From the NCBI RefSeq assembly GCF_024298765.1, contig NZ_CP101210.1: a stretch of 64,000 nt of DNA. The stretch is one strand, 5' to 3'. This stretch comes from Escherichia coli (lineage in GTDB: Bacteria; Pseudomonadota; Gammaproteobacteria; Enterobacterales; Enterobacteriaceae). This document shows, one piece after another, positions 4,618-43,361 of this stretch; position 1 is the first letter of the stretch; each line of letters starts with the position of its first letter. A program made the position numbers and the translations under genes. Under the pieces are notes generated by a model that saw only the letters and a list, made by a program, of their open reading frames with translations, was not told where the DNA came from and ran no database searches.

Positions 4618-4732
4618 CCCTCTCCGGTCAGCCAGCAGGTTGTAGCTCTTTCCTGACTGATTCGTTATTCCTTTCGTCCCGTCAGTCACTGGTGTTTGTA
4701 TCGTACTGTGCTGGTGTTGATGTGCGTTTTCC

Positions 4733-8015: not shown

Positions 8016-8066
8016 TGTTCAGGATCTTCAGGGTAGTCTCATCTGCATGCACCACCGGACGGTTTA

Positions 8067-8849: not shown

Positions 8850-8855
8850 TATTTT

Positions 8856-9248
8856 TCACTGAGTTAGCAGTGTATTTTGCGTGTTTTCAGGGCGCAGTTC
8901 AGGTTCATTCTGCCAGCCCCATTTCGTCAGGTCATGTCCCTTAACCTGCTGCCAGTCAACACCGGCAATCAGCCAGTTAAACTCGTCGGGAGTTAGGTGC
9001 CAGGCAGCATCATTTGCACGTGGCCAGCGGAAGCTGCCTTTGTGCAGACGGCGGGTACACAACCACACCCCGTGTTTATCCCACCGGAGAACTTTGATAC
9101 GCGAACGGACTTTGTTAACAAAGACGAAGGCGGCTCCCTCATGCCATGTCGACCGGAGTTCATCCTGTATATACTGCGTCAGTGTGTCGATGCCCCGGCG
9201 CATGTCAACAGGTTTAATCGCGATGAAGACATTATCAGGACTGAGCAT
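8856..9248 (-). CDS. tnpB: IS66-family TnpB
   Basis: Internal start MLSPDNVFIAIKPVDMRRGIDTL... of ORF 8856-9542 matches IS66 orf2 pattern. Confidence 0.7.
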   Translation of the reverse strand: MLSPDNVFIAIKPVDMRRGIDTLTQYIQDELRSTWHEGAAFVFVNKVRSRIKVLRWDKHGVWLCTRRLHKGSFRWPRANDAAWHLTPDEFNWLIAGVDWQQVKGHDLTKWGWQNEPELRPENTQNTLLTQ

Positions 9249-9564
9249 ATTTGAGCGCCCTGAAGACATCGGTAAGTTGTGACGGCTGACAGCACATCCG
9301 TACTCCGCCGGGAAGGAAGAGCGTGACTGGCTCATTCGTGACGGGCTGTGGTACATCAGCATGCAGTGGTGGCGCAATATGAACGGGAAGAACGGTCGGT
9401 TCATTTGCCCGGCGTTCAGCTTTTGCGACATCCTGCGGCCATTCGCGAAGTGATGTGAAGGGAATATCGTTGAGTTCACAGTATTGCTGACGTGTAAGAC
9501 CACTGGCGCGCCAGGCAGCAACGTGCTGCCTTTTCTGTTCAATGGTCCATCGGGGTTTTGACAT
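9235..9564 (-). CDS. tnpA: IS66-family accessory protein TnpA
   Basis: 109-aa ORF immediately upstream of and overlapping tnpB in IS66 order. Confidence 0.55.
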   Translation of the reverse strand: MSKPRWTIEQKRQHVAAWRASGLTRQQYCELNDIPFTSLREWPQDVAKAERRANEPTVLPVHIAPPLHADVPQPVTNEPVTLFLPGGVRMCCQPSQLTDVFRALKYAQS

Positions 9565-9649
9565 TGATTATCTCCGGTAAGTTGGTGAATGAATGTCGGT
9601 AATGCTAACTGACTGAAAATCTCTGTGAAGATGACTTCCCCGTAACGAC

Positions 9650-10404
9650 ACCTTCTTTATCGCCTGCCGAATGACGCTGTTCAGCGATTCGATGGCTATC
9701 GTCGTGTCCGGGCTATTCTCAGACGGCAGTCTTAACGAAGGACTGCAGTTCGTGAATGCAAATCGCGTTTATCGAATAATGAGCGAGAATAACCTGTTGT
9801 TATTACATGACAAACCTTCACGACCGCAGAGGGAACATAAAGGCCCGAATATCGGTGAAGGAAAGCGACCCGCGCTGGTGTGCCGATGGCTTTGAGTTCG
9901 GTTGTGATGATGACGAAAAACTGCGTGTCACGTTCGCACTGGACTGTTGCGATCTTGAATCCATAGACTGGGCCGCAAGCACGGGAGGTTATGGCAAAGC
10001 AACGGTGCAGGATGTCATGTCAGGAGCGATAGAAAAACGCTTTGGCGATAGACCGGGATGGCCCATCCAGTGGCTGACCGATAACGGTTCGGCTTATACA
10101 ACTCATGAAACACGGCAGTTCGCCAGAGAGTTGAATCTGGAGCTCTGCACGACGGCAGTCAGTAGCCCTCAGAGTAATGGAATGAGAGAACGGTTCGTGA
10201 AAACGATGAAGAGCGATTACATCAGTATCATACCTAAACCGGACGGGTTAATGGCAGCAAAGAACCTTGCAGAGGCGTTCGAGCATTATAACGAATGGCA
10301 TCCGCATAGTGCACTGGGTTATCGCTCGCCACGGGAATATCTACGGCAGCGGGCCAGTAATGGGTTAAGTGATAACAGGTGTCTGGAAATATAGGGGCAA
10401 ATCC
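9650..10404 (+). mobile_element. IS2-like (IS3 family) element, 3' portion only; ends at IS2 right terminus GGGGCAAATCCA
   Basis: Encodes InsD-like C-terminal region; last ~150 bp identical to the IS2 fragment at 38287-38436. Confidence 0.7.
9671..10394 (+). pseudogene. insD: IS2-like transposase InsD (OrfB), 5'-truncated and frameshifted
   Basis: Frames 9671-9895 and 9807-10394 together give NANRVYRIM...WCADGFEF...WLTDNGSAY...[29 protein letters not shown]. Confidence 0.7.
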
Positions 10405-10650
10405 ATTTCGCAAGCAAAGACTCTGGTAAATACTCGTCATATTTATCCAGATCCTTATCAGGAACAACTGTAGCAGGCTCAAATTCTGAAGGTGCAAAAT
10501 GGCATCTGAATCGATCACGACTTGGCATGCTTCCGATCATTGATTGGCATCCTGCCAGTCGTATCGTAAGCGTAAACCGACCGCCGTATGTAGCCATTAG
10601 ACAAGAATTGGTAACTTAGACGCCCATCTGACACAGACGGACATCTAAGT

Positions 10651-11070
10651 ATGGAATTGCAGGACTGGCGAAAAGAACCTCGTAAAAAGTATTCGAATGA
10701 ATTCAAACTTCGTATGGTTGAACTGGCATCACAACCCGGTGCTTGTGTGGTCCAGATTGCACGAGAAAATGGCGTCAATGATAATGTTATATTCAAATGG
10801 CTCAGACTCTGGCAAAACGAAGGGTGTATATCGCAGCGTCTTCCGGTGACAACCACTTCTGACGCAGGCGTTGAATTATTACCTGTAGAGATAACGCCTG
10901 ATGAGCCGAAAGAACCGGTGGCTGCTCTTACTCCGTCTTTATCCACCCAGACTACTGTCAGTGCCAGCTCCTGCAAGGTGGAGTTCCGTCACGGTAACAT
11001 GACGCTGGAAAATCCTTCACCAGAGCTGCTCACTGTGTTGATCCGTGAACTGACCGGGAGGGGACGATGA
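10651..11070 (+). CDS. tnpA: IS66-family TnpA
   Basis: 139-aa ORF MELQDWRKEPRKKYSNEFKLRMVELAS...; overlaps tnpB start (ATGA). Confidence 0.7.
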   Translation: MELQDWRKEPRKKYSNEFKLRMVELASQPGACVVQIARENGVNDNVIFKWLRLWQNEGCISQRLPVTTTSDAGVELLPVEITPDEPKEPVAALTPSLSTQTTVSASSCKVEFRHGNMTLENPSPELLTVLIRELTGRGR

Positions 11071-11417
11071 TCTCACTCCCGTCAGGCACCCGCATCTGGC
11101 TCGTTGCCGGCGTTACCGATATGCGTAAATCCTTCAACGGACTGGGAGAACAGGTACAGCATGTGCTGAATGATAATCCCTTCTCCGGTCACCTGTTCAT
11201 CTTCCGTGGCCGACGGGGTGACACGATTAAAATCCTGTGGGCTGATGCTGATGGTCTGTGCCTGTTCACCAAACGCCTGGAGGAAGGCCAGTTTATCTGG
11301 CCTGCGGTGCGTGACGGCAAGATATCCATTACCCGCTCGCAACTGGCAATGCTCCTCGATAAGCTGGACTGGCGTCAGCCAAAAACATCCCGTCTTAACG
11401 CACTGACAATGTTGTAA
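11067..11417 (+). CDS. tnpB: IS66-family TnpB
   Basis: 116-aa ORF MISLPSGTRIWLVAGVTDMRKSFNGL..., canonical IS66 orf2. Confidence 0.75.
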   Translation: MISLPSGTRIWLVAGVTDMRKSFNGLGEQVQHVLNDNPFSGHLFIFRGRRGDTIKILWADADGLCLFTKRLEEGQFIWPAVRDGKISITRSQLAMLLDKLDWRQPKTSRLNALTML

Positions 11418-11447
11418 AAATGTCATGGCCGGATTATAAAAACGGTC

Positions 11448-12212
11448 ATGAGTCAGAAATACCTCATTCGGATCACTGAGCTGGAAAGGTTGCTCTCTGA
11501 GCAGGCTGAAGCCCTCCGTCAGAAAGACCAACAACTGAGTCTGGTTGAAGAGACGGAGGCCTTCCTGCGTTCTGCGCTGGCACGTGCCGAAGAAAAGATC
11601 GAAGAAGATGAGCGGGAAATAGAGCATCTGCGGGCCCAGGTGGAAAAACTGCGCCGGATGCTGTTCGGTACCCGTTCTGAAAAACTGCGTCGTGAAGTTG
11701 AACAGGCTGAAGCCCTGCTGAAACGACGCGAACAGAACAGCGATCGTTACAGCGGGCGTGAGGATGACCCGCAGGTTCCCCGCCAGTTGCGACAGTCGCG
11801 TCATCGTCGCCCGTTACCGGCGCATCTGCCCCGCGAAATAAACCGCCTGGAGCCAGAAGAAAGCTGTTGCCCGGAGTGTGGTGGTGAGCTGGATTATCTG
11901 GGGGAAGTCAGCGCAGAACAACTGGAACTGGTGAGCAGCGCCCTGAAAGTGATCCGCACAGAACGGGTAAAAAAAGCCTGTACAAAATGTGACTGCATCG
12001 TTGAAGCACCGGCACCGTCCCGTCCGATAGCGCGTGGTGTCGCGGGCCCGGGGTTACTTGCCCGCGTGTTAACGGGAAAATACTGCGAACACCTGCCACT
12101 GTATCGTCAGAGTGAAATCTTTGCCCGTCAGGGTGTCGAACTGAGCCGTGCGTTACTCTCCAACTGGGTTGACGAGCTCCTGCCATGGAACGTAGCACTC
12201 ACCAATAAATAA
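11448..12212 (+). pseudogene. tnpC: IS66-family transposase TnpC, N-terminal fragment (254 aa of ~520)
   Basis: Coiled-coil N-terminus, CPECGGELDYL zinc motif, HLPLYRQSEIFARQGVELSRALLSNWVDELLPW, then premature stop. Confidence 0.7.
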
Positions 12213-12437
12213 GTATCAATACGGCACTCCGTTAACGCTTACTGAAACGACGCCGGGGACCATCTTCTTTTGGGTAAAAAAGGCCGCGCCAGAATTCGAC
12301 ACGACCACTGCTATATGCGTATTATTCTGTTCCGGGAGATTGCCTCTCTTCTGGTTATTCAGCAATACAACGGACAAAAAGCACTGGCATAAATAACCCC
12401 TTGTTAAACGGAGAATAGTGATAATGTATTGACGCTA

Positions 12438-13685
12438 TTACTCATTTCTCATCTTCATCCTTCGGGTAAGCAGAGTCGCACAAATGAATCCCAGCAGACT
12501 AAATGCCACCATTACAGAAAAAACATAGTTATAGCCCTGTATGCCAGAAAAATTATCTAACAGCGAACCATAAAGCGTGTAAGCAAACATGGAAGGCATG
12601 TAACCAATAATGCACCCAAACGCCATTGCTGAACCAGCAAATTCTCTGGGGGTACCGATTTCATCCATTGGCGCAAAAAAAATTGCCCGTTGTGAAAAAA
12701 TGATTGCACCAAATCCAAGAGTTGCAGTCATTCCAAGATAAACATTCATTGAGTCGTGTGGTAGTTGAATAAAAAGTAGCATAGCGACTGCTGAAATAAG
12801 GAAAGTCCATTTCAGATAGATGACCGGAGAATGAGAAATTTTATCTGCGAGATAACCGCCAACTGGCCCGCCCACCATTTTTAGTCCGTACTGGTTAATA
12901 ATCCCGTAAGCACCCACGAGTGCAACGGGAAGGGCATAGATATCTTTCAGGAATGGTATGAAATATGTTAGCCCACAATATGCGGAGTACACAAAGAATA
13001 TACAAAATGAGGCCAGCCACAGATTTGGTGATTTAACGACATTCTTTATCCCCTTGAATATCTGTTTATTAACATCTTCGTCATTCTGTGGAATGGTCCT
13101 GTCGTCTGCATCCACAATAAAGTAGGTGATAATTCCAACAATAATGGTGATTAATGTGTAATAAACAAGACCAGCCTGCATGCCAGCTTTTCCTTCGCCA
13201 AACTGCACAAAGACGAATAAAGCGCCGGACGCAATTAATACATCCACGACTCCTCGTCCAGCTTCCAGAAAGCCGAACATACGTCCCTGTTCATCCCTGT
13301 TCCCCAACAGACGAACAGCTTTAAGTAGCACGGGCCAGTAGACCACTTCGCCAAAGAAAGCCATAGCACCAAAAGCTATAAGGTAACCAGAGAAGGGGGG
13401 TAATGTTGTGAGGTAAGCGCCGCACAGACCCACACCGATTAAACCTGCAGGAAGAAGTATTTTTTTGGAAAAGCGATCTGCTATATATAATGAACTAAAT
13501 AGTCCGATAGTCTGAACAGCAGCATATATTGTAAATCCAAAGCCAATCTGTGTATTAGTCAATCCCCAGTCAGCCTGCATAGGAACATAAAATACGTCCT
13601 TCATACTGGACAATTTGAAAATTGTCCCACCGCCAAGAATAAGGAAGCATAGCTTCATCCATTTATTCATCTGGTTATCCCCCAT
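12438..13685 (-). CDS. MFS transporter
   Basis: 415-aa polytopic hydrophobic ORF; start overlaps RidA stop (TAATG). Confidence 0.7.
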   Translation of the reverse strand: MGDNQMNKWMKLCFLILGGGTIFKLSSMKDVFYVPMQADWGLTNTQIGFGFTIYAAVQTIGLFSSLYIADRFSKKILLPAGLIGVGLCGAYLTTLPPFSGYLIAFGAMAFFGEVVYWPVLLKAVRLLGNRDEQGRMFGFLEAGRGVVDVLIASGALFVFVQFGEGKAGMQAGLVYYTLITIIVGIITYFIVDADDRTIPQNDEDVNKQIFKGIKNVVKSPNLWLASFCIFFVYSAYCGLTYFIPFLKDIYALPVALVGAYGIINQYGLKMVGGPVGGYLADKISHSPVIYLKWTFLISAVAMLLFIQLPHDSMNVYLGMTATLGFGAIIFSQRAIFFAPMDEIGTPREFAGSAMAFGCIIGYMPSMFAYTLYGSLLDNFSGIQGYNYVFSVMVAFSLLGFICATLLTRRMKMRNE

Positions 13686-16823: not shown

Positions 16824-17744
16824 ATGAGCACAAGAGTATGGGTACTTGGTGATGCGGTTGTTGATTTATTACCCGAAAGCCAGGGGAGACTACTACAGTG
16901 TCCTGGCGGGGCGCCTGCTAATGTTGCAGTCGGTATCGCAAGGCTGGGGGGGAAAAGTGCCTTTATTGGCAAAGTTGGCGATGATCCTTTCGGTCGCTTT
17001 ATGTATCAGACACTGAGTACAGAAAATGTTGATACACGTTATATGTCTCTTGATCCTCAACATCGCACCTCAATTGTGGCTGTAGGACTTGATGAGCAAG
17101 GAGAAAGAAACTTTACCTTTATGGTACGCCCAAGTGCCGATCTTTTTTTACAACCTGATGGCCTTCCTGCATTTGGGCCGGGTGAATGGCTCCATCTTTG
17201 TTCCATTGCGCTCAGTGCAGAACCTTCCCGAAGTACCGCATTTCTGGCTATGGAGAAAATACGTCAGGCTGGCGGAAACATCAGTTTTGATCCCAATATC
17301 CGCAGCGATCTCTGGCAGAGTGAAGCGCTATTAAGGAAATACCTTGATCGCGCACTTTCGCTGGCGAATATCGCTAAATTGTCCGAAGAAGAGTTGCTAT
17401 TCATCAGTGGCGAAAGCCAGGTTCAGCAAGGCGCATATTCATTAGTACAACGTTATTCGTTGACTTTATTGCTTATCACACAAGGAAAAAATGGCGTACT
17501 TGTGTATTTTCAGGGGCAGTTTATCCACTATCCCGCCAAACCTGTTTCTGTCGTCGATACGACCGGGGCAGGAGATGCTTTTGTCGCTGGATTACTTGCC
17601 GGTCTGGCTGATTCTGGAATACCAACAAATACCAGACAGCTTGAACGAATCATTGTACAAGCTCAGATTTGTGGTGCTCTGGCGACCACGGCTAAAGGCG
17701 CGATGACCGCCTTACCCCGACAACACGATCTCCCTTCACAATAG
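16824..17744 (+). CDS. scrK: fructokinase
   Basis: 306-aa PfkB-family ORF with GAGDAF motif; first gene of scr regulon. Confidence 0.85.
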   Translation: MSTRVWVLGDAVVDLLPESQGRLLQCPGGAPANVAVGIARLGGKSAFIGKVGDDPFGRFMYQTLSTENVDTRYMSLDPQHRTSIVAVGLDEQGERNFTFMVRPSADLFLQPDGLPAFGPGEWLHLCSIALSAEPSRSTAFLAMEKIRQAGGNISFDPNIRSDLWQSEALLRKYLDRALSLANIAKLSEEELLFISGESQVQQGAYSLVQRYSLTLLLITQGKNGVLVYFQGQFIHYPAKPVSVVDTTGAGDAFVAGLLAGLADSGIPTNTRQLERIIVQAQICGALATTAKGAMTALPRQHDLPSQ

Positions 17745-17887
17745 TGATCCTGCTGTTGTATCTGTAACCCGATTTGTCGTGCCTGTCACATTTACTAAAT
17801 CGGTTTAGCGAAAATAATTGCTTTGGCTAAAAAGTCAGCTTTATTATCAACACCTAAACCGGTTTAGCATTTTAGCAATTTTTATAA

Positions 17888-19429
<1,542 letters not shown>

Positions 19430-19489
19430 TACCAGACAACCTCACAGATGTGAAGTTTTTACTGAAATAACAATGAATTAGAGGGTTAT

Positions 19490-20860
19490 ATGGATTTCGA
19501 TAAAATCGCCCAATCGTTGCTTCCTTTATTAGGTGGTAAGGAGAACATCGCCAGTGCAGCACATTGCGCCACTCGCCTACGGCTGGTACTGGTTGACGAC
19601 ACACTTGCCGATCAACATGCCATTGGCCAGATTGATGGAGTGAAAGGTTGTTTTCGTAATTCAGGGCAAATGCAAATTATCTTTGGCACCGGCGTGGTTA
19701 ATAAAGTCTATGCTGCCTTTATTCAGGTTGCAGGTATTAGCGAATCCAGTAAAGCAGATATCGCTCGACTCGCCGCTCAAAAACTCAATCCTTTTCAGCG
19801 AATAGCACGGCTACTTTCTAATATTTTTGTCCCCATCATTCCAGCCATTGTTGCTTCTGGTTTATTAATGGGGCTTCTGGGAATGGTGAAAACATATGGC
19901 TGGGTGAATACCGATAATGCGATTTATATCCTGCTGGATATGTGCAGTTCAGCCGCATTTATTATTCTCCCCATCCTTATTGGCTTTACTGCTGCTCGTG
20001 AATTTGGTGGAAATCCTTATCTTGGCGCGACATTAGGAGGGATTCTGACTCACCCGGCACTCACAAATGCCTGGGGCGTTGCTGCGGGATTTCAGACAAT
20101 GAACTTCTTCGGTTTTGAAATCGCCATGATTGGCTATCAGGGAACGGTTTTCCCCGTGCTTCTGGCAGTATGGTTTATGAGCATAGTGGAAAAACAGTTA
20201 CGCAGGTTTATCCCTGATGCTCTGGATCTCATTCTGACGCCATTTCTGACTGTCGTCATTTCTGGCTTTATCGCTCTTTTGATTATTGGTCCGGCAGGAC
20301 GAGCGTTAGGTGACGGTATCTCTTTCGTTCTCAGCACGCTGATTGCACACGCAGGCTGGTTAGCAGGGTTGTTATTCGGCGGGCTATATTCAGCGATTGT
20401 TATTACGGGTATTCATCATAGCTTCCACGCAATTGAAGCAGGACTTTTAGGTAACCCTGCAATCGGTGTTAATTTCCTGCTGCCTATTTGGGCAATGGCA
20501 AACGTTGCGCAAGGCGGTGCATGTCTGGCGGTATGGTTTAAAACCAAAGATACAAAAATTAAAGCAATCACCCTACCCTCGGCCTTTTCCGCAATGTTAG
20601 GGATTACTGAAGCCGCTATTTTTGGTATCAACCTTCGTTTTGTTAAACCTTTTATTGCGGCCTTAATTGGTGGCGCTGCCGGCGGTGCCTGGGTTGTCTC
20701 TGTTCACGTTTATATGACTGCCGTTGGTCTGACCGCAATACCCGGCATGGCAATCGTTCAGCCAACATCGTTGGTTAATTATATTATTGGAATGGTGATT
20801 GCTTTCGCTGTCGCTTTTAGCCTCTCTTTATTATTCAAATACAAAACGGACGAGGAGTAA
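19490..20860 (+). CDS. scrA: PTS sucrose-specific EIIBC component
   Basis: 456 aa; EIIB Cys motif AAHCATRLRL followed by polytopic EIIC. Confidence 0.9.
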   Translation: MDFDKIAQSLLPLLGGKENIASAAHCATRLRLVLVDDTLADQHAIGQIDGVKGCFRNSGQMQIIFGTGVVNKVYAAFIQVAGISESSKADIARLAAQKLNPFQRIARLLSNIFVPIIPAIVASGLLMGLLGMVKTYGWVNTDNAIYILLDMCSSAAFIILPILIGFTAAREFGGNPYLGATLGGILTHPALTNAWGVAAGFQTMNFFGFEIAMIGYQGTVFPVLLAVWFMSIVEKQLRRFIPDALDLILTPFLTVVISGFIALLIIGPAGRALGDGISFVLSTLIAHAGWLAGLLFGGLYSAIVITGIHHSFHAIEAGLLGNPAIGVNFLLPIWAMANVAQGGACLAVWFKTKDTKIKAITLPSAFSAMLGITEAAIFGINLRFVKPFIAALIGGAAGGAWVVSVHVYMTAVGLTAIPGMAIVQPTSLVNYIIGMVIAFAVAFSLSLLFKYKTDEE

Positions 20861-22269
20861 TGTCGATGCCTTCACAAATGCCCGCGATTTTACAGGCAGT
20901 GATGAAAGGTCAGTCCAAAGCACTGGCAGATGCCCACTATCCTTGTTGGCATCTCGCTCCCGTCACCGGACTAATGAACGATCCAAATGGCTTTTGCTGG
21001 TCTGGAGGCCGCTATCATCTGTTTTATCAGTGGAATCCACTGGCTTGTGATCATAAGTACAAATGTTGGGGGCACTGGAGTTCGACGGATTTATTGCACT
21101 GGCAGCATGAACCATTAGCGCTAATGCCCGATAAAGAGTACGACCGTAATGGTTGTTACTCAGGAAGCGCGGTTAATAATCAGGGCGTTCTCACACTTTG
21201 CTATACCGGTAATGTTAAGTTTGATGATGGCAGCAGAACGGCATGGCAATGTCTGGCCACCGAAAATAACCAGGGCGGGTTTGATAAACTAGGCCCTGTC
21301 ATATCGTTACCTGATGGTTACACCGGACATGTTCGTGATCCAAAAGTCTGGAAGCACAACAGCCAATGGTACATGGTGCTTGGCGCGCAAGATAAAGAGA
21401 AACGGGGGAAAGTGCTGCTGTATTCCTCTGTCGATCTGAATACCTGGTCTTTTCATGGAGAAATTGCTGGTAACGGTCTGAATGAAATAGATAACGCAGG
21501 ATACATGTGGGAATGTCCTGATCTTTTCGCCCTTGATGGTGAATACATTCTCCTCTGTTGCCCCCAGGGAATGGTGCGCGAACATGAGCGCTATCTGAAT
21601 ACTTATCCCTGCGCCTGGCTACATGGACAGTTTGATTACGAGACAGGCAAATTTACGCATGGCGCTTTCTCAGAGCTGGATGCGGGATTTGAATTCTATG
21701 CACCACAGACGATGGAAGCCCCGGACGGGCGACGATTGCTGGTCGGCTGGATGGGGGTTCCTGATGGCGAAGAGATGTTGCAGCCAACCAGAAAGCATCA
21801 TTGGCAGCATCAAATGACCTGTTTTCGCGAACTCTCATTCCAGAAGGGAAAATTGTTTCAGATGCCAATCAGGGAACTCGCGCAACTGCGTGAAGCTGAA
21901 CACTTCTGGCAAGGAAAAGCGGATCATGCGCCGCATGTCGAAATTGAACGCCTGGAAATGGACATCATTCCGTCGGGTGAGCTGTATCTGAATTTTGGCA
22001 ATGCGCTGGCACTGCATCTTAATGACGATGGTATTCAACTACAGAGGAGAAGCCTTGCAGGGCAAGAGAAACTAACTCGTTACTGGCGAGGAAGCGTAAC
22101 GTCACTGAAGATTCTCTGTGACAGTTCCAGCGTAGAGATATTCATCAATAATGGTGAAGGTGTAATGAGTAATCGTTATTTTCCCCATCATCCAGCTTCG
22201 CTGATATTACAGGGTGAGTCTGACGTCACGTTACGCTACTGGTCGCTACGCGCCTGCATGGTAGAATGA
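20860..22269 (+). CDS. scrB: sucrose-6-phosphate hydrolase (GH32)
   Basis: 469 aa with GH32 motifs [27 protein letters not shown]. Confidence 0.9.
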
Positions 22270-22294
22270 GGGTTTTGAATTACGGATCCTCGTC

Positions 22295-23302
22295 GTGAGA
22301 AAAACCAAACGCGTTACTATTAAAGACATTGCTGAACTGGCGGGAGTGTCGAAAGCAACCGCCAGTCTGGTTCTCAATGGTCGTGGCAAAGAGTTACGTG
22401 TTGCGCAGGAAACGCGTGAGCGTGTGCTGAGTATTGCCCAACAGCAGCATTATCAGCCCAGCATTCATGCCCGCTCATTACGGGACAACCGCAGTCATAC
22501 CATTGGTCTCGTCGTTCCTGAAATCACTAACTACGGATTTGCAGTATTTTCCCATGAACTGGAAACATTGTGTCGGGAAGCGGGCGTCCAACTCCTCATA
22601 TCCTGTACTGATGAAAATCCTTCACAGGAAACAATGGTGGTGAACAATATGATTGCCCGCCAGGTTGATGGGTTAATCGTCGCATCCAGTATGCTGCATG
22701 ATAATGACTATCAAAAACTTAGCGAGCAATTACCTGTTGTGTTGTTCGATCGCCACATGAACGGCAGCACATTGCCATTGGTCATTACTGACTCTGTTTC
22801 TCCCACCGCCGCTCTGGTGGCAGATATTGCACGGAGTCACCCGGATGAATTCTATTTTCTGGGGGGACAACCCCGTTTGTCACCGACTCGCGATCGACTG
22901 GAAGGATTTACACAAGGCTTGCAGCAAGCCGGAGTAACGCTACAACCTGAATGGATTATTCACGGTAATTATCATCCGAGCTCAGGCTATGAAATGTTTG
23001 CCGCGCTATGCGCTCGTTTAGGACGTCCTCCTAAAGCCTTATTCACTGCCGCTTGTGGATTACTGGAAGGCGTTCTGCGCTATATGAGCCAATATAATTT
23101 ACTCGACAGTACAATCCACCTGGCGAGTTTTGATGATCATTATTTGTATGATTCACTTTCGGTAAGAATCGACACAATACAACAGGATAATCGCCAACTT
23201 GCTTTTCACTGCTTTGAGCTTATTTCGCAACTGATTGAAGGTGAAACGCCATCCCCATTACAGCGTTATCTTCCTGCCAGTTTACAAAAACGCTATAGAT
23301 AA
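22295..23302 (+). CDS. scrR: LacI-family sucrose operon repressor (GTG start)
   Basis: 335 aa; N-terminal [26 protein letters not shown]; follows scrB. Confidence 0.85.
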
Positions 23303-23853
23303 TTTATTAATTATCTTATGTAGCTGAGTATTAGGTGACAAATGATCAGTCTTTCCCACGACAATTGTATCGTTCTGATGAACTCATATTGACGCATTTT
23401 TCGGGCGTATCAGCCCCCGGTGTTACGAATGGTGCATACGAACGATCGCAGTTTGACGATGGTTGATTTATTTTGTTGCGCAGGGGCAATCGCCTGCTAG
23501 GTACCGAAGGCTGGCTCTGAAGTACTGAGTCGGGTGATCGCGTCTGGCCGCTGGCTGCGAATTACTGACACGGGATTGGTGGCAGGTGATGAAATCCTGT
23601 CCCGGAAATGGCTCCGGATTGATTCAAGTTCTGACCCGCTGTCAGCCCGCGTGGTTGCTGCTCTGGCTCATTTCCTGTCGTCAGTTTTCTCATGCCCGGC
23701 TGCGGGTTTTCGGACTGAATGATAATATCTGACGACAGGAGTCGCTCATCTATCGAAGGTAAATCTCCCTGAAAGTAATAGTTCTGGCAGGGGGAACAGA
23801 ACTGTAATCATTGTGCCGTAATTTGAGTTGGCTACCTTTGCTACATGAAAACT

Positions 23854-24327
23854 TTATTCACTTTGTTCATGTTGATTGGGTTTTTCAATGAGGAAAGTTT
23901 CCAGGGTACAATCTCCATTAACCTGTTTCCGCAAAGCAAGTGGCATTTTACCGTTACCAGACCACGTCCTGGTTTCGCCGTTCTCATCCTCAAAGATATA
24001 TTTCGCTTTTCTCACACCGCCTTTGGGTTTTCGTTTGGTTTCCGTTGTCCCTGCAATAGCAGAAACTGGACCCTGCCATTCTTCCGGGTCAAGCCCCACA
24101 GAAACGATGTACTCAAATACCTGTTGACATTTAGTTTCCAGTTCCTTACGTTCAGCCGCTTTTCGTTCAGCATCTTCACGGCGTTCTTCAATAACAGTGT
24201 TGAGCTTTTCCTGCATGTCGAGTAATTGCTCAAAATCAAGTTCGCGTACATACGTGCGTAGTGAACGAATATTCGTCATTGTCCGACTGATGATGCTGTA
24301 TTCTTCTTCTTTAGTCAGTTTGCACAT
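23854..24327 (-). CDS. H-NS family nucleoid-associated protein (island-borne paralog)
   Basis: NIRSLRTYVREL oligomerisation N-terminus and C-terminal DNA-binding motif AKYIFEDENGETRTWSGNGKMPLALRK; GAGG RBS upstream of ATG. Confidence 0.8.
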   Translation of the reverse strand: MCKLTKEEEYSIISRTMTNIRSLRTYVRELDFEQLLDMQEKLNTVIEERREDAERKAAERKELETKCQQVFEYIVSVGLDPEEWQGPVSAIAGTTETKRKPKGGVRKAKYIFEDENGETRTWSGNGKMPLALRKQVNGDCTLETFLIEKPNQHEQSE

Positions 24328-34549: not shown

Positions 34550-34834
34550 ATGTCATACCGTTCAGCAGCCAGCGTTGCCTTCCCCGGCTGCTGTTATTGT
34601 AAGGCATTTTCGTTAAGAATGCAGAAGGAGAGGAGCGTGAGATTGCTGTTAAAAGGGCTCGTCGGAATGGCGCTGGCCTGGCTTGTTATTGGTTTCGGGA
34701 TGGAGTTATTTTTTCTCGCCGATCGGGTTCATCCGGCATTAAGAGTAATCGTTGGCCTGGGGATGTTATTCCTGATGATAATGATTGCGGGTGGTATGTG
34801 CGGTTCTCTTCTGTCACGAAAGAAAACATCATGA
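34550..34834 (+). CDS. small hydrophobic membrane protein (2 TM helices), hypothetical
   Basis: ORF with two hydrophobic stretches; true start may be the internal Met at 34622. Confidence 0.35.
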   Translation: MSYRSAASVAFPGCCYCKAFSLRMQKERSVRLLLKGLVGMALAWLVIGFGMELFFLADRVHPALRVIVGLGMLFLMIMIAGGMCGSLLSRKKTS

Positions 34835-34886
34835 CGTTCCTGTTTACGCCGCTACATTTGTGGTGGCTTTATGATTATTCAGAATA

Positions 34887-36560
34887 ATGAATTCACCTGT
34901 CGCGGCATGTTCAGCGACCAGCGCCGGACAGAAATATCGCTTTTTCTCAATTATTATGAAAATTAATCTTCCGTTCATACACTGGTCACGGATTAGCAAT
35001 GATAAGCGCCTCGTGTTATCAGTGGTTGTCTTTACCCTTTCTAATCTCCTTGTATCCTCAGGAGCGCATCTGATTTACCGGATATTATTCTTTATCCTGG
35101 CACTTCTTATTATTAAGGCAATGAAATCGATTACGTTGCGTTTGATTCTTGCCTTCCCGTTCACATTACTGACTGCTGCAGATATCAGTATCAGCCTGTA
35201 TTCATGGTGTACATTTGGCACAACATTTAATGATGGTTTTGCAATCAGTATCCTTCAGACAGATCCTGATGAAGTAATAAGAATGTTCAGGATGTATGTT
35301 GTTTATGTTATCGCATTTATTATCCTCTTTTTATTGTTCTTCTGTTCAGCAATAAATAAAACGTCCTCATTGCCATCGGAAAAGGTCACGGTAATTACAT
35401 TTTTATTGTTAATTACAGTAACGTTATATTCTTCCTTCCAGTTTGCGTTGAAGAAACAGTATCAAATAAATGAAGTTGATCCTTACATAGTCGCTTCCCG
35501 GTTTGCCACATATACCCCTTTCTTTAATCTGAACTATTTTGCACTGGCCGCAAAGGAGCATCAGAGATTAATGACGATTGCTGATACCATACCTCACTAC
35601 GATCTGGTGATTACGGATAACAACACTGACGTATTTGTTCTGGTGATTGGTGAATCTGCAAGGACTGATAACATGTCCATTTACGGGTATTCGCGCCCTA
35701 CCACACCAGAGCTTCAGAAACAGAAATCACGACTGAAACTGTTCACTCAGGCAATCAGTGGCGCACCTTACACCGCGCTGGCTGTTCCACTGGCGTTATC
35801 TGCCGATAGTGTACTGCATCATGATATCCGTAATTACCCTGATAACATTATCAACATGGCGAATCAGGCGGGGTTCGATACCTGGTGGCTCAGTGCGCAG
35901 TCCGCTTTCCGACAGAACGGAACGGCTGTGGCCAGTATCGCCATGCGGGCCAGAAACAGAATTTATGTCAGAGGCTATGATGAGTTACTGCTCCCACACC
36001 TGGCTGAAGCACTGAACAGTAATCCGGGGAGCAGGAAACTGATTGTTCTGCATCTGACGGGCAGCCATGAACCGGTTTGCAGTAACTGGCCCAGAGATAA
36101 AGCCGTGTTTAAACCGCTGGATACAGAAGAAGTCTGTTACGATAATTCCATTCATTATACCGACAGTTTGTTGGGACAGGTTTTCACCATGCTGGAAACG
36201 CGTCAGGCATCCGTCATGTATTTTTCAGATCACGGTCTGGAGTATGACCCGACAAAAGAACATGCCTATTTTCATGGTGGAATAAAACCCAGTCAGCAGG
36301 CTTATCATGTTCCGATGTTTATCTGGTACAGCCCGGCACTGGGAGAGCATGTCGATCGCCAGACGGTGAACAGCGTTTTTTCCACTGCGTATAATGATTA
36401 TCTGATTAATGCATGGATGGGCGTAACCAGACCGGCTCAACCGAAAACGCCGGAGGAGGTGATTACCCGCTGGCAGGGGAAATCCGTGGTTTTTGATGCC
36501 AGTCATAACGTGTTTGATTACAAAGTATTACGAAAGAACTTTAATGAACTCCAGGAATAA
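34887..36560 (+). CDS. phosphoethanolamine transferase, sulfatase superfamily (YhbX/EptA-like)
   Basis: N-terminal TM helices plus motifs VLVIGESARTDNMSIYGY, HLTGSHEP, YFSDHGL; close to remembered E. coli YhbX; start may be Met at 34956. Confidence 0.75.
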   Translation: MNSPVAACSATSAGQKYRFFSIIMKINLPFIHWSRISNDKRLVLSVVVFTLSNLLVSSGAHLIYRILFFILALLIIKAMKSITLRLILAFPFTLLTAADISISLYSWCTFGTTFNDGFAISILQTDPDEVIRMFRMYVVYVIAFIILFLLFFCSAINKTSSLPSEKVTVITFLLLITVTLYSSFQFALKKQYQINEVDPYIVASRFATYTPFFNLNYFALAAKEHQRLMTIADTIPHYDLVITDNNTDVFVLVIGESARTDNMSIYGYSRPTTPELQKQKSRLKLFTQAISGAPYTALAVPLALSADSVLHHDIRNYPDNIINMANQAGFDTWWLSAQSAFRQNGTAVASIAMRARNRIYVRGYDELLLPHLAEALNSNPGSRKLIVLHLTGSHEPVCSNWPRDKAVFKPLDTEEVCYDNSIHYTDSLLGQVFTMLETRQASVMYFSDHGLEYDPTKEHAYFHGGIKPSQQAYHVPMFIWYSPALGEHVDRQTVNSVFSTAYNDYLINAWMGVTRPAQPKTPEEVITRWQGKSVVFDASHNVFDYKVLRKNFNELQE

Positions 36561-36703
36561 TTCGTTAAAGTAATTTACGACTCTATTCTTTTTTAAAGGA
36601 AACTTTCAGAAAATGCCCCCAGGGCGATAACCTGGGGAAGGGGGACTGTGTTATTACTGGTGGATAAATTATTACTTGTTTGAAAGATACACTAATGCAA
36701 TAT

Positions 36704-37723
36704 CTACTGATGCTGGATGCTTGAGTGTTTCATTCCTGCTGCTGAAAACGGCAATATCCAGGGCCAGACATATTCACCGTTAATATTTCTGCATTTCTGT
36801 ACAATTTCCTCAGAAAGTGTCTCATCAATTCTTTCCCGCAACAGCTTCTGCTGTCTTAAAATGCTTTCGCATATTTCGAAATCATCTTCCTGCATCAGCA
36901 TTTCGGCGCATTTAATGATTTCTGCTCGTTCATGCAGCACAGAGGAATGGTTATAGAGCCAGTTTACAAACAGCAATGCTTCCGGATATTGTCCCCATAA
37001 TGGTGAGTATGTTGCATAGTAATCTTCTGCCGTATCCAGAGAGCCGGAGAAGTTATGCCGCACAGCAAGTGGAAATGGATGCAAATTTCCGCACAGCATT
37101 TCCGCGATGTAAGTGTTTGTAGCAAAGCCATGACGAAAAGCTGTGGCAGCCTTAACATGTTCCCCATTCAGAAAATGCAGAAGACCAAGTTCATACCAGT
37201 AAGGTGAAAATTCATCAGCATGCTCTTTCAGTACACTGAAGGCTTGCTTATGATCGCCTGTTCGTAACAGTTCTGAGCCCAACAACCAGCGGGCACCCTG
37301 ATTATCTTCAGGATTGTATGCCAGTATTTTATCAGTGAGCATAACCGCATCCTGATGACGCTGTAAGTGCACATTTGCGAGAATTGTTGCATAAAGCGCG
37401 CGCAGATAAGGGCGGTTTTCGGGATGCATCCAGATGATTTCACCACTGAAACTTTCCGGGATGAGACGATTACCTGCCGCCAGTCCTTTAAGAGCGGCGT
37501 TCAGTGCCTTACGCGGGGCATTCTGCTCCAGAAATGCATATGCCAGATGAGCGTGTATATCAATAAAGTCAGGCTCCTGTTGAGCAAGGCGTCTGAGTTT
37601 GTTGATATAACCCGTCTCACTGATTTCATCAGTGTCGTATGCATCAAGCACTTCTTCAAACTCCCCCAGTAATGGGCCAAACCAGGTATCCGGAAATACG
37701 AAACGACCCTGGTTATTGTTCAC
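36704..37723 (-). CDS. TPR-like hypothetical protein, probably 5'-truncated by IS1 (listed start is GTG abutting the IS1 end)
   Basis: 339-aa ORF whose frame stays open into IS1 at 37733; helical-repeat-like sequence; no family recognised. Confidence 0.45.
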   Translation of the reverse strand: MNNNQGRFVFPDTWFGPLLGEFEEVLDAYDTDEISETGYINKLRRLAQQEPDFIDIHAHLAYAFLEQNAPRKALNAALKGLAAGNRLIPESFSGEIIWMHPENRPYLRALYATILANVHLQRHQDAVMLTDKILAYNPEDNQGARWLLGSELLRTGDHKQAFSVLKEHADEFSPYWYELGLLHFLNGEHVKAATAFRHGFATNTYIAEMLCGNLHPFPLAVRHNFSGSLDTAEDYYATYSPLWGQYPEALLFVNWLYNHSSVLHERAEIIKCAEMLMQEDDFEICESILRQQKLLRERIDETLSEEIVQKCRNINGEYVWPWILPFSAAGMKHSSIQHQ

Positions 37724-37787
37724 TTCAAAGCGGGTGATGCTGCCAACTTACTGATTTAGTGTATGATGGTGTTTTTGAGGTGCTCCA

Positions 37788-38063
37788 GTGGCTTCTGTTT
37801 CTATCAGCTGTCCCTCCTGTTCAGCTACTGACGGGGTGGTGCGTAACGGCAAAAGCACCGCCGGACATCAGCGCTATCTCTGCTCTCACTGCCGTAAAAC
37901 ATGGCAACTGCAGTTCACTTACACCGCTTCTCAACCCGGTACGCACCAGAAAATCATTGATATGGCCATGAATGGCGTTGGATGCCGGGCAACAGCCCGC
38001 ATTATGGGCGTTGGCCTCAACACGATTTTACGTCACTTAAAAAACTCAGGCCGCAGTCGGTAA
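37788..38063 (+). CDS. insA: IS1 protein InsA
   Basis: 91 aa [48 protein letters not shown]... Confidence 0.9.
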
Positions 38064-38425
38064 CCTCGCGCATACAGCCGGGCAGTGACGTCATCGTCTG
38101 CGCGGAAATGGACGAACAGTGGGGCTATGTCGGGGCTAAATCGCGCCAGTTCGCCCGGATGTTGGGACTTGAACCGAAGAACACGGCGGTGCGGAGTCCG
38201 GAGAGTAACGGCATAGCAGAGAGCTTCGTGAAAACGATAAAGCGTGATTACATCAGTATCATGCCCAAACCAGACGGGTTAACGGCAGCAAAGAACCTTG
38301 CAGAGGCGTTCGAGCATTATAACGAATGGCATCCGCATAGTGCACTGGGTTATCGCTCGCCACGGGAATATCTACGGCAGCGGGCCAGTAATGGGTTAAG
38401 TGATAACAGGTGTCTGGAAATATAG
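37982..38425 (+). pseudogene. chimeric ORF: IS1 InsB N-terminus (56 aa) fused in frame to IS2 InsD C-terminus
   Basis: [16 protein letters not shown]...GAKSRQ then [34 protein letters not shown]...NRCLEI; junction at CGCCAG 38143-38148. Confidence 0.75.
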
Positions 38426-39002
38426 GGGCAAATCCACTGCATGACAAAGTCATCGGGCATTATCTGAACATAAAACACTATCAATAAGTTGGAGTCATTA
38501 CCGACGAAGCGATAGCGATAATGACTGAAAGCGGAAAAATAAAAACAAATTGAATAATGTGTTTGGTAATGAATTTATCGGGGGGAATTGGGCATATCTA
38601 CCGCTTACGTCGAGCCGCTCACACCCGGTCAATGACCTGACAATCTCCCGGCAAGTCCCGACGTCGGGACTTGCGCCCCTGACACCGAAAAATAGCAGGA
38701 ACCCGCTCGCTACGGGTCCTCAGCTCAGTGCAAACCTGACTCAGCTCCTGCATTGCATCCCCGAAATTACCACACTCAGTACTTCATCACCTGCCACCAA
38801 TACCCGTGTCAGTCCTTCGTGACCTGACGCAATTACCCGACTCAGAGCTTCAGAGTCAGCCGCCGGTACCTGCCCGGTGCTCGCCCCTGCGCAACCAAGA
38901 TAAATCGACCATTGGCAGACTGCGATCATTCGTATGCATCGCTGATGACGCGCCCGAAAAACGCGTTAATGTAAGTGTGGAACAATACTTTGTTACTATG
39001 CA

Positions 39003-40397
39003 TCAAAAAAAGTATTTGAAACGTAATCGGGCACCGTAACGATCATCGGTAATGTCACAATTACTATATCTACAGTTACTATCCAGAATTGAGTAATAAG
39101 CCCCGAGGTAAATATTAAAGTTCTCCATATCCATCACATTAGCAAACTGATAAGATGCATGAATGGTGTGAATGTTGTATATTCCTTCACCATCAATCCA
39201 GCAACCATTATTACACACGACACCACTAAATTCATCAATCTTATTATGTGCGTAGATATAACCCAGTTCGAAACGTTTCCACAGAGCATTAATACTGGCA
39301 GTGAAATCTTTCTCATTACTGGCATCCAAATAGGCGGTATTAAGAGTAACCACGATGCCATTTTCCGGATCTGTTTTCAGACCGTTCCATGTCATGCTAA
39401 TACCATAACCGGAACGATTGGACTGATCGACAAAATTCCCCTTATTATCGGTATAGCCATAAGCATTTTTTACCACGTTCGCTTCCATCGCTGCGGAGAC
39501 TGTGAATTCTTCCGTTGGCGACCAGGCAATTACCGGGCGCAGATAAGCGACATTTTTCTGCTGCTCCATATATCGTCCATGATAATTACCGTTATTATAT
39601 AAAGATGTTCCGTCTTCAAGTAACGTGTTTAACTCAAAATACCAGTTATCGAGTTGTTTACTGATGAGGAAATTACCACCAGCGTCAGAACGACCGCGTC
39701 CCTCTTTCATCATATAGATATAACCACGGCCATCAGCATAAATATCATTAGCTGTATTACCGGAATACTCAATGAAAGTATCCTGATTTAGAGGGAACAT
39801 ATCGTAAGCTTCAAAACGACCGACTTTCACTTTCCACTCGTCATCTTTTCCAAAAAAGAATAATGCATCATCAATATTCACTGAACCGTGCATATCCGCC
39901 AGTGGTTGTGCTGAAAATCCAGCGAAATAACCATTATCAAGCTTACGGGTACCGTCAAAACCTAATAGAATACGGCCATTAAGGTCCCACCGTTCATTCA
40001 CTGACTCACTGTTCGCCCCGGAACTTATCATTACTAACTGACCGGGTTTACTGGCAGCATCTATATTAAACTCCACATCACCATAAAACTTCAAATCATT
40101 GTAACCAGAGAGCAGAAAACCTGGAGAAGATGTTTTTTCTTTTGTTGACTCAACTACTGCATAGCTGTTAGCATCTTTTTTATTCTGCTCTGAACTAATT
40201 TGACGTATTTCAGAATGTTGTTCTATATCAAAACTCTTTAACATTCTTTCTGCTTTTTCCGCCCTTTTTTCTGCAGCTTCCAGGCGTTCTTCCAGCAATG
40301 CCATTCTTTGTTCAAGCGTTAGCCCCCCTGTTTTTGCTGCACACGCATTGTATTCCAGTAATAAAAAAAGAGATAAACCCAAAAGTAACTTATTCAT
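39003..40397 (-). CDS. rafY: raffinose-inducible outer membrane glycoporin
   Basis: 464 aa with signal peptide, coiled-coil N-extension, C-terminal ...RFKYFF; last gene of raf operon. Confidence 0.8.
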   Translation of the reverse strand: MNKLLLGLSLFLLLEYNACAAKTGGLTLEQRMALLEERLEAAEKRAEKAERMLKSFDIEQHSEIRQISSEQNKKDANSYAVVESTKEKTSSPGFLLSGYNDLKFYGDVEFNIDAASKPGQLVMISSGANSESVNERWDLNGRILLGFDGTRKLDNGYFAGFSAQPLADMHGSVNIDDALFFFGKDDEWKVKVGRFEAYDMFPLNQDTFIEYSGNTANDIYADGRGYIYMMKEGRGRSDAGGNFLISKQLDNWYFELNTLLEDGTSLYNNGNYHGRYMEQQKNVAYLRPVIAWSPTEEFTVSAAMEANVVKNAYGYTDNKGNFVDQSNRSGYGISMTWNGLKTDPENGIVVTLNTAYLDASNEKDFTASINALWKRFELGYIYAHNKIDEFSGVVCNNGCWIDGEGIYNIHTIHASYQFANVMDMENFNIYLGAYYSILDSNCRYSNCDITDDRYGARLRFKYFF

Positions 40398-40591
40398 TTT
40401 ACCCCCTTAAATAAAAACAAATGTGGGTACTCTTATATTCTCTGTATCAACACAAAATACCATTCATATTCTTCACCAGACTGGTATATATAATCGCAAC
40501 ACATTACCAAAAGCACACAGCAAAGATAATTAATGTGTACTGGCAAAGTAATGACAGATAATGTCAGAAAAAATACTGATATCGATATGTC

Positions 40592-43299: not shown

Positions 43300-43361
43300 T
43301 ATTCTTACCCTCACGGGATAATATTGAGAAACAGGACGGAGCTGAGGCTCCGTACCTCTCT

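What the first reader, a model, noticed from the sequence alone, without database searches (positions are those of the whole stretch)
23854..24327. Island-encoded H-NS paralog
A full-length H-NS-family protein with intact dimerisation N-terminus and DNA-binding motif (TWSGNGKMP) is carried on horizontally acquired DNA. Such paralogs can modulate silencing of AT-rich island genes by heteromerising with chromosomal H-NS/StpA.
Basis: partly seen in the sequence, partly recalled or inferred. Interest (0 to 1): 0.45.

Follow-up and report, generated by a model that had tools for sequence, protein, structure and literature searches.

The report
Plasmid-type H-NS paralog on island
The gene is a real, intact H-NS-family DNA-silencer gene on an E. 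coli Phe-tRNA genomic island, but it belongs to the branch normally carried by IncX resistance plasmids rather than to the H-NS/StpA/Hfp branch. It is an uncharacterised member of a known family.

Summary
Window 23854..24327 (-) encodes a 157-aa protein with an H-NS N-terminal oligomerisation domain, a K/R-rich linker and an H-NS C-terminal DNA-binding domain. RefSeq already annotates it as an H-NS family protein (WP_000335224.1). It lies on a pheV island of E. coli.

The protein is 37-40% identical to H-NS, StpA, Hfp and an IncHI2 homolog, and 68% identical to the IncX4 plasmid protein HppX (pCROD2). It groups with the IncX 'HppX/Sfx' clade in 100 of 100 bootstraps.

The quoted motif TWSGNGKMP is not canonical. 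The minor-groove triplet is NGK, not QGR or RGR, and IncX4 HppX shares it. That protein binds AT-rich DNA in published ChIP-seq.

Unlike the plasmid genes, this copy has no topB or hha beside it. It sits divergently, across a conserved 318-bp spacer, from a Tia/Hra-family adhesin gene.

The allele occurs in 121 of 5426 complete E. coli genomes, always on the chromosome. Frameshifted and decayed copies exist elsewhere, so the gene is dispensable.

Most likely it is a self-oligomerising silencer acting on island DNA. Heteromerisation with H-NS is plausible but untested. It is a new member of a known kind, of modest interest.

The parts
23854..24327 (-). hns-like CDS, 157 aa (WP_000335224.1); island-borne member of the HppX/Sfx clade with an NGK motif
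24079..24297 (-). N-terminal dimerisation/oligomerisation domain (residues 11-83). Residues 1-16 form an extension absent from H-NS but shared with IncX4 and IncX1 HppX.
   Evidence: Pfam PF22470 E=2.6e-19; 3NR7 match; AF2 helices 6-28, 32-76 and 81-84; translation
24004..24063 (-). Flexible K/R-rich linker (about residues 89-108, ...TKRKPKGGVRKAK)
   Evidence: AF2 pLDDT below 50 for residues 89-104; sequence
23887..24006 (-). C-terminal H-NS-type DNA-binding domain (residues 108-147)
   Evidence: Pfam PF00816 E=6e-5; 2L93, 1HNR and 2LRX sequence matches; top Foldseek hits are 1HNR, 2L93, Ler 2LEV and StpA 2LRX
23941..23967 (-). Minor-groove loop TWSGNGKMP. The triplet is NGK where H-NS has QGR and Sfx has RGR. 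A +G frameshift allele found in other strains maps here (TGG->TGGG at about 23961-23964).
24328..24645 (.). 318-bp divergent control region between hns-like and the tia/hra-like gene. Its length and sequence are conserved in diverged copies of the module. It contains the only four ATCGATCG matches in the window and 4 GATC sites within 35 bp (24517-24555).
24646..25383 (+). Tia/Hra (heat-resistant agglutinin) family outer-membrane adhesin gene, the conserved divergent partner of the hns-like gene
   Evidence: 66% identity to 'invasion outer membrane protein Tia' and 51% to 'Heat resistant agglutinin 1'; synteny
34887..36560 (+). Phosphoethanolamine transferase, the third recurrent member of the OMP-ept-hns island module
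46744..47958 (-). P4-type tyrosine integrase of the island
   Evidence: NF007246, 309 bits
48105..48180 (-). tRNA-Phe (pheV), the island attachment site

Best explanation
The gene encodes a functional nucleoid-associated silencer of the IncX-plasmid H-NS lineage (HppX/Sfx clade, IncX4-like 'NGK' subclade). A Phe-tRNA genomic island captured it as a bare coding sequence. Shown here: the domain architecture, the clade membership, the exclusively chromosomal location, the absence of the plasmid partners topB and hha, the conserved divergent pairing with a Tia/Hra-family adhesin gene, purifying selection, and a mosaic history. Inferred: the protein dimerises and oligomerises through its N-terminal coiled coil. 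It binds AT-rich or curved DNA through the K/R-rich linker plus the NGK loop, as its 68%-identical relative HppX(pCROD2) does in ChIP-seq. It then forms mainly homo-oligomeric filaments that repress island genes, most probably starting with its own 318-bp divergent control region and the adjacent adhesin gene. Contacts with H-NS, StpA or Hha are possible but secondary. The function is accessory and dispensable.
For: Architecture. Clade: 68% identity to IncX4 HppX, 55% to IncX1, 43% to IncX3, and 37-40% to H-NS, StpA, Hfp and HppH. The bipartition HppX-like versus {H-NS, StpA, Hfp, HppH} is recovered in 100 of 100 bootstraps, and so is the NGK clade. Q39 sits at the H-NS L30 position, which is the published HppX signature (PMC7544231). 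pCROD2 HppX carries WSGNGKRP. It binds AT-rich DNA, with an H-NS-like profile in E. coli K-12 (PMC13308145). dN/dS is 0.2 against the IncX4 gene and 0.24-0.28 in the N- and C-terminal domains against a diverged island allele. The allele is intact and near-identical in 109 of the 121 complete E. coli genomes that carry it, all on chromosomes. The exact protein is recorded on at least 1000 contigs. The divergent partner and the 318-bp spacer are conserved in loci that differ in everything else.
Against: There are no expression, binding or phenotype data for this protein. [quoted passage not shown] Published HppX/Sfx selectivity depends on plasmid context and topology, and is proposed to involve the adjacent topB. 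That context is absent here. Sister lineages of the same module keep the adhesin and the PEtN transferase but carry a multi-stop hns-like pseudogene or no copy at all. A +G frameshift allele that destroys the DNA-binding domain is common. The adhesin therefore does not need this protein. dN/dS is about 1.1 in the central region between island alleles, based on small counts.
Confidence: 0.5

Rival explanations
1. One reading: a generic H-NS 'backup/stealth' paralog, like Hfp, StpA or Sfh. It would act mainly by forming heteromers with chromosomal H-NS/StpA and so tune silencing of AT-rich island genes genome-wide.
For: The N-terminal domain is retained and the equivalents of H-NS R12 and R15 are conserved. 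Sfx, in the same clade, interacts with H-NS, StpA and Hha in two-hybrid assays and partly complements hns loss (PMC11796372). HppX(pCROD2) expressed alone in K-12 binds H-NS-like sites (PMC13308145).
Against: Identity to H-NS is only 40%. The L30 position is Q, and site-2 residues differ (Y61->V, M64->Y, D68->V). Fitzgerald et al. predict reduced hetero-oligomerisation for these clades (PMC7544231). Sfx and HppX(pCROD2) occupy niches reciprocal to H-NS and exclude it (PMC13250579, PMC13308145).
Confidence: 0.25
2. A hitch-hiking relic: the gene is a neutral passenger of the island with no current role and happens to be still intact in this lineage.
For: A multi-stop pseudogene sits at the same position in the EC361 and L030-L033 lineage. 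A +G frameshift allele is recorded on 833 contigs. Other truncated clusters exist (P0008, P0010, P0087). Tia-type loci have no copy.
Against: 109 of 121 complete-genome copies are intact at the motif site. dN/dS is 0.2-0.44 overall and 0.24-0.28 in both functional domains. The NGK loop is invariant across island and plasmid members that are 58-68% identical. The upstream control region is conserved.
Confidence: 0.15
3. An anti-silencer, Ler-like or H-NST-like. The weakened NGK hook or altered oligomerisation would let it displace or poison H-NS filaments and activate the adjacent adhesin gene.
For: It lies divergently next to a virulence-type adhesin gene, as Ler does within LEE. The minor-groove triplet is non-canonical. 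The natural +G allele gives an N-terminal-only protein with the architecture of dominant-negative H-NST (PMC3897749).
Against: The window allele is full-length with a complete DNA-binding fold. All characterised clade members (Sfx, HppX3, HppX-pCROD2) are repressors (PMC11796372, PMC11915502, PMC13308145).
Confidence: 0.1

Closest known systems
HppX(pCROD2) and IncX4-plasmid H-NS homologs (WP_001293133.1, WP_001293134.1)
   Same: 68% identity. They share the 16-residue N-terminal extension, Q at the H-NS L30 position, the K/R-rich linker and the WSGNGK-P loop, and they form one clade in 100 of 100 bootstraps. The pCROD2 protein binds AT-rich DNA in vivo (PMC13308145).
   Different: The plasmid genes sit in a topB-hha-hns backbone module next to the T4SS. 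The window gene is chromosomal and has no topB, hha or T4SS nearby. Similarity stops at the CDS ends. Its partner is a Tia/Hra adhesin gene.
Sfx (R6K, IncX2) and HppX3 (IncX3)
   Same: Same deep clade (HppX/Sfx) with a similar length and architecture. Both are experimentally shown to be oligomerising repressors.
   Different: 43-55% identity. They carry RGR, not NGK, and have a Pro-rich linker. They repress conjugation operons, which the island region around the gene lacks.
Island RGR-type allele (P0025; E. coli A41, CP028735.1:4153062-4153523, cited by Wang et al. 2024 as an Sfx-clade gene 'within chromosomal transposons')
   Same: Same locus, same divergent OMP and same 318-bp spacer. The first 60 codons are nearly identical (dS 0.055).
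   Different: From about codon 60 onward the sequence is of the IncX1/X3 RGR type (dS saturated), so the two are recombinant alleles of one locus.
Hfp / H-NSB (serU island and EARL islands)
   Same: A full-length H-NS family protein encoded on a tRNA-linked genomic island of pathogenic E. coli.
   Different: 37% identity. Hfp is 63% identical to H-NS, has QGR, has no N-terminal extension, and lies in a different island family.
H-NST (truncated H-NS antagonists)
   Same: Island-encoded. The +G frameshift allele of this gene, found in other strains, gives a comparable N-terminal-only product.
   Different: The window allele is full-length. The 80-aa ORF at L011:26257-26499 in the CFT073 serU island, which I take to be H-NST, gave no match to any window ORF.
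H-NS, StpA, and Sfh/HppH
   Same: Same two Pfam domains and the same fold.
   Different: 37-40% identity and below the NCBIfam equivalog cut-offs. They have QGR, L30 and a shorter N-terminus.

Membership tests
H-NS family (Pfam Histone_HNS_N + Histone_HNS) | N-terminal coiled-coil dimerisation/oligomerisation domain | tested here: met
   PF22470 E=2.6e-19; 3NR7 E=4e-11; AF2 helices 6-28, 32-76 and 81-84, pLDDT 80-96
H-NS family (Pfam Histone_HNS_N + Histone_HNS) | C-terminal beta-beta-alpha DNA-binding domain | tested here: met
   PF00816 E=6e-5; 2L93 E=1e-8 and 1HNR E=2e-7; top Foldseek hits 1HNR and 2L93 (TM to target 0.60-0.72)
H-NS family (Pfam Histone_HNS_N + Histone_HNS) | Q/RGR AT-hook-like minor-groove triplet | tested here: not met
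   The triplet is N125-G126-K127. The skeleton W122, G124, G126 and P129 is invariant.
H-NS family (Pfam Histone_HNS_N + Histone_HNS) | Binds AT-rich DNA and silences transcription | not testable with these tools
   Only by analogy: the 68%-identical HppX(pCROD2), with the same NGK, binds AT-rich DNA in ChIP-seq (PMC13308145).
H-NS proper / StpA (NCBIfam equivalogs NF008193, NF007656) | Score above the curated equivalog cut-off | tested here: not met
   92.2 bits against 211, and 90.1 bits against 202
Hfp (H-NSB) | Close similarity to UPEC Hfp (clade collected at >90% identity in PMC7544231) | tested here: not met
   37% identity to CFT073 Hfp; separated by a 100/100 bipartition
HppX / Sfx clade (IncX-plasmid H-NS homologs) | Phylogenetic grouping with IncX H-NS homologs | tested here: met
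   100 of 100 NJ bootstraps for the HppX-like bipartition, and 100 of 100 for the NGK subclade with IncX4. The taxon set is small (16 sequences).
HppX / Sfx clade (IncX-plasmid H-NS homologs) | Published sequence signatures: divergence from H-NS at dimerisation position 30 and at the QGR triplet | tested here: met
   Q39 at the L30 position; L42 retained at the L33 position; NGK at the QGR position (PMC7544231)
HppX / Sfx clade (IncX-plasmid H-NS homologs) | Encoded on an IncX plasmid immediately downstream of topB (with or without hha) | tested here: not met
   All 125 places of this allele are chromosomal. No topB or hha ORF is in the window. Similarity to IncX plasmids is confined to the CDS.
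HppX / Sfx clade (IncX-plasmid H-NS homologs) | Represses the plasmid T4SS/conjugation operon with cognate-plasmid preference | not testable with these tools
   No T4SS genes were annotated in the parts of the window covered. The function cannot be assayed here.
H-NST (truncated antagonists) | N-terminal domain only, lacking the DNA-binding domain | tested here: not met
   The window allele is full-length. Only the +G allele in other strains (P0090, 124 aa) has that architecture.
HlpC (chromosomal clade of PMC7544231) | QGR retained; all members diverge from H-NS at position 33 | not tested
   No HlpC sequence could be fetched. By the published description the window protein does not fit, because it has NGK and L at position 33.

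The most novel reading that the evidence does not exclude
A Phe-tRNA island has domesticated an IncX4-type silencer with a non-canonical NGK minor-groove hook as the dedicated local regulator of a Tia/Hra-family adhesin (and PEtN-transferase) module. It would act through the conserved 318-bp divergent control region, whose cluster of four Dam (GATC) sites could make the switch phase-variable. Because the copy is chromosomal and has no adjacent topB, it would also be a natural test of whether the 'cognate replicon specificity' of HppX proteins needs the adjacent plasmid topoisomerase.
Probability: 0.15. Interest if true: 0.55.

Novelty: new member of a known kind. Interest (0 to 1): 0.3.

Why it matters
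H-NS-family clades have been described as exclusively chromosomal or exclusively plasmid-borne (PMC7544231). The IncX branch (Sfx, HppX3, HppX-pCROD2) is now the model for how a silencer can prefer its own replicon, possibly through the neighbouring topoisomerase. Here an IncX4-like member sits on the chromosome of about 2% of complete E. coli genomes, without topB or hha, next to an adhesin gene. This allows three comparisons. First, what an HppX protein binds when it is removed from its plasmid. Second, what the NGK variant of the minor-groove hook does compared with QGR and RGR. Third, whether the natural frameshift (N-terminal-only) alleles behave as H-NS antagonists. The island also carries chromosomal blaCTX-M-14, so carriers are clinically relevant strains. 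None of this is a new principle. It extends a known family into a new context.

Tried and rejected
(1) I looked for IncX backbone remnants around the gene. blastn of 23303-24645 against IncX1, X3 and X4 loci matched only the CDS. phmmer with IncX4 Hha and TopB, the 80-aa CFT073 serU-island ORF that I take to be H-NST, H-NS and the protein itself found no other hit among the window ORFs. An integrated IncX plasmid is therefore rejected.

(2) I tested whether the adhesin pairing is universal. It is not. Tia-proper and P0147-type loci lack any hns-like remnant, and the P0121/EC361 lineage has only a pseudogene. An obligatory regulator-target relationship is therefore rejected.

(3) Rooted-tree bootstrap values were unreliable for deep nodes, apparently because of re-rooting. 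I replaced them with bipartition counts.

(4) The promoter and terminator scan gave only weak consensus matches, about 240 nt upstream of the ATG. I did not use them.

(5) Foldseek E-values are weak (0.016-0.18) because the domain is small. Only the ranking and the TM scores to the target are informative.

(6) Literature searches linking heat-resistant agglutinin/Tia or pheV islands with an H-NS paralog found nothing relevant.

(7) HlpC sequences could not be retrieved by accession, so that comparison rests on the published description only.

(8) ATCGATCG occurs 4 times in the window, which is not unusual as a total (13 of 100 shuffles reach 4). Only the clustering and its conservation are notable.

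Full report
**Observation.** A GAGG ribosome-binding site lies 6 nt upstream (sequence). Pfam finds the H-NS N-terminal domain at residues 11-83 (E=2.6e-19) and the H-NS C-terminal domain at residues 108-147 (E=6e-5). PDB sequence searches hit the H-NS oligomerisation domain 3NR7 and the DNA-binding domains 2L93, 1HNR and StpA 2LRX. An AlphaFold2 model has mean pLDDT 76. It shows helices 6-28, 32-76 and 81-84, a disordered linker at 89-104, and a beta-beta-alpha-alpha C-terminal domain. Its best structural matches in the PDB are the H-NS, Ler and StpA C-terminal domains. RefSeq already annotates the identical protein, WP_000335224.1, as an H-NS family protein. The exact sequence is recorded on at least 1000 contigs.

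**Island context.** The window is E. coli. tRNA-Phe is at 48105..48180(-). It is followed by yqgA and speC, so it is pheV by comparison with strain 222, and it is preceded by a P4-type integrase. The same 24 kb is 100% identical in strain ECJXMCRH7, where it sits at pheU next to dicD, dsbD and cutA. The element therefore uses both Phe-tRNA genes. The island carries scrKYABR, a raffinose operon, T6SS remnants and an ISEcp1-blaCTX-M-14 unit. The gene is 43.7% GC, against 49.3% in the core flank.

**What the protein is.** It is not an H-NS, StpA or Hfp-type paralog. NCBIfam scores are far below the equivalog cut-offs: 92 bits against 211, and 90 bits against 202. I fetched reference sequences from K-12 (hns, stpA), CFT073 (hfp on the serU island), an IncHI2 plasmid, and IncX1, IncX3 and IncX4 plasmids including pCROD2.
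- Identity is 40% to H-NS, 37% to StpA, 37% to Hfp and 40% to the IncHI2 homolog.
- Identity is 68% to IncX4 HppX, 55% to the IncX1 protein and 43% to the IncX3 protein.
- In neighbour-joining bootstraps, the split between the HppX-like sequences and {H-NS, StpA, Hfp, HppH} was recovered 100 of 100 times. So was a subclade uniting the island proteins with the IncX4 and Salmonella IncX-like proteins.
- The protein also carries the published sequence signatures of the HppX clade. It has Q at the H-NS L30 dimerisation position while L33 is retained, and it diverges at the QGR triplet (PMC7544231).
- It shares the 16-residue N-terminal extension of the IncX4 and IncX1 proteins.

**The DNA-binding motif.** TWSGNGKMP keeps the invariant W, G, G and P. 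It replaces H-NS Q112 with N and the groove-inserting R114 with K. This NGK triplet is invariant in the island alleles and in the IncX4 and Salmonella plasmid proteins, which are 58-68% identical. The other IncX proteins and one island allele have RGR. pCROD2 HppX has WSGNGKRP. It was shown by ChIP-seq to bind AT-rich DNA. Binding strongly preferred its own plasmid, and the profile was H-NS-like when the protein was expressed alone in K-12 (PMC13308145). NGK is therefore a functional variant rather than a sign of decay, and its biochemical consequence is unknown. The papers I read on this clade discuss only QGR and RGR (PMC11796372, PMC11915502).

**Genomic anatomy differs from the plasmids.** On IncX plasmids the gene follows topB, with hha in between on IncX4, next to the T4SS genes. 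In the window, similarity to IncX DNA stops at the ends of the CDS, and no topB, hha or second hns-like ORF is present. Instead the gene is divergent from a 245-aa outer-membrane protein at 24646..25383. That protein is 66% identical to the invasin Tia and 51% identical to heat-resistant agglutinin 1. The 318-bp spacer has the same length and about 84% mean column identity in independent loci whose other flanks differ. A phosphoethanolamine transferase is the third recurrent member of the module.

**Evolution.**
- Against the IncX4 gene, dN/dS is about 0.2 in every domain.
- Against a diverged island NGK allele it is 0.24 in the N-terminal domain and 0.28 in the C-terminal domain, and about 1.1 in the central region, based on small counts.
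- Against the island RGR allele (P0025), the first 60 codons are almost identical (dS 0.055) and the rest is saturated. N- and C-terminal trees are incongruent. The locus has therefore exchanged its C-terminal two-thirds by recombination with IncX-type genes.
- The RGR allele in E. coli A41 is exactly the 'chromosomal transposon' example cited by Wang et al. (CP028735.1:4153062-4153523; PMC11796372). The locus has thus been noted once in the literature but not studied.

**Prevalence and decay.** The NGK island allele is present in 121 of 5426 complete E. coli genomes, at 125 places, all chromosomal. Of these genomes, 109 are exact over the motif region and 11 carry one change. A +G insertion (TGG->TGGG) inside the motif gives a 124-aa product ending TWVW*. 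That product is recorded on 833 contigs. A sister lineage of the module has an OMP 66% identical to this one (the same module is in strain EC361). It retains the OMP and the transferase, but its hns-like gene has several stop codons. Tia-proper loci have no remnant of the gene. The protein is therefore accessory, and the adhesin does not require it.

**Mechanism.** The best-supported reading is a self-oligomerising, AT-rich-DNA-binding silencer of plasmid lineage acting on island DNA. Its own divergent control region and the tia-like gene are the most probable first targets. Architecture, clade, synteny and selection are shown here. Oligomerisation, DNA binding and repression are inferred from Sfx, HppX3 and HppX(pCROD2) (PMC11796372, PMC11915502, PMC13250579, PMC13308145). 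It is weakened by the L30->Q change and the site-2 substitutions, and by the reciprocal, mutually exclusive occupancy reported for HppX/Sfx and H-NS. A neutral relic and an anti-silencer are less likely rivals.

**Verdict.** This is an uncharacterised, chromosomally captured member of the known IncX (HppX/Sfx) branch of the H-NS family. Its variant minor-groove triplet and new genomic partner are of modest interest. It contradicts strict plasmid exclusivity of that clade and offers a natural control lacking an adjacent topB for the 'cognate plasmid specificity' idea.

Noticed in passing
window 26042..30440: An ISEcp1 - ISVsa5 (IS4-like) - blaCTX-M-14 - truncated IS5-family transposase unit is inserted in the island between the tia-like OMP gene and the WYL regulator gene, 1.7 kb from the hns-like gene. 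Other carriers (strains 222 and CFSAN061769) lack the insertion. This gives a chromosomal ESBL gene on a Phe-tRNA island.
   Followed up: partly
window 24517..24555 (within the intergenic region 24328..24645): All four ATCGATCG matches in the 64-kb window, and 4 GATC (Dam) sites within 35 bp, cluster here. This is the densest GATC cluster in the window. The core ATCGATCG-N-TAAAATCGATC is conserved even in the diverged EC361-type locus. It could be a regulator-binding array or a Dam-dependent switch for the adhesin gene, the hns-like gene, or both.
   Followed up: partly
window ~23961-23964; L022:6001-6375: A +G frameshift allele (TGG->TGGG) truncates the protein inside the DNA-binding loop, giving 124 aa that end TWVW*. 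It is recorded on 833 contigs, and at most 11 of 121 complete genomes differ at this site. The product has the architecture of dominant-negative H-NST.
   Followed up: partly
window 23854..24327 versus L016:8001-8462 and L038:7063-7524: The same island locus carries either an NGK-type or an RGR-type C-terminal two-thirds behind a nearly identical first 60 codons. This indicates a recombination breakpoint near the EREAAER repeat. IncX1 and IncX4 plasmid genes show the same mosaicism.
   Followed up: yes
window 30628..34234: A WYL-domain regulator is followed by proteins of 359 aa and 523 aa. RefSeq calls these 'chemotaxis protein'/hypothetical and 'ATP--cob(I)alamin adenosyltransferase'. They have no NCBIfam hit but match the PADLOC candidate defence families PDC-M09A (3.5e-22) and PDC-M40B (1.3e-42). 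This is probably a mis-annotated candidate anti-phage operon.
   Followed up: partly
window 23000..47000 versus L003 (NZ_CP067342.1): The identical 24-kb island segment is integrated at pheV in the window (yqgA/speC flank) and at pheU in strain ECJXMCRH7 (dicD/dsbD flank). The island has therefore moved between the two Phe-tRNA genes.
   Followed up: partly
window 16824..23302 and 39003..46594: A complete sucrose PTS regulon (scrK, scrY, scrA, scrB, scrR) and a raffinose operon (regulator, alpha-galactosidase, permease, invertase, porin) flank the module. T6SS remnants (tssF, tssG) and IS66/IS3 debris lie at the left end of the window (about 1410..12500).
   Followed up: no
L013:12003-12443; L030-L033:3325-3765: A diverged copy of the module (OMP 66% identical) keeps the OMP and the PEtN transferase intact. 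Its hns-like gene has at least 4 in-frame stops and reads WSRNGKMP in the loop. This shows lineage-specific decay of the paralog.
   Followed up: yes
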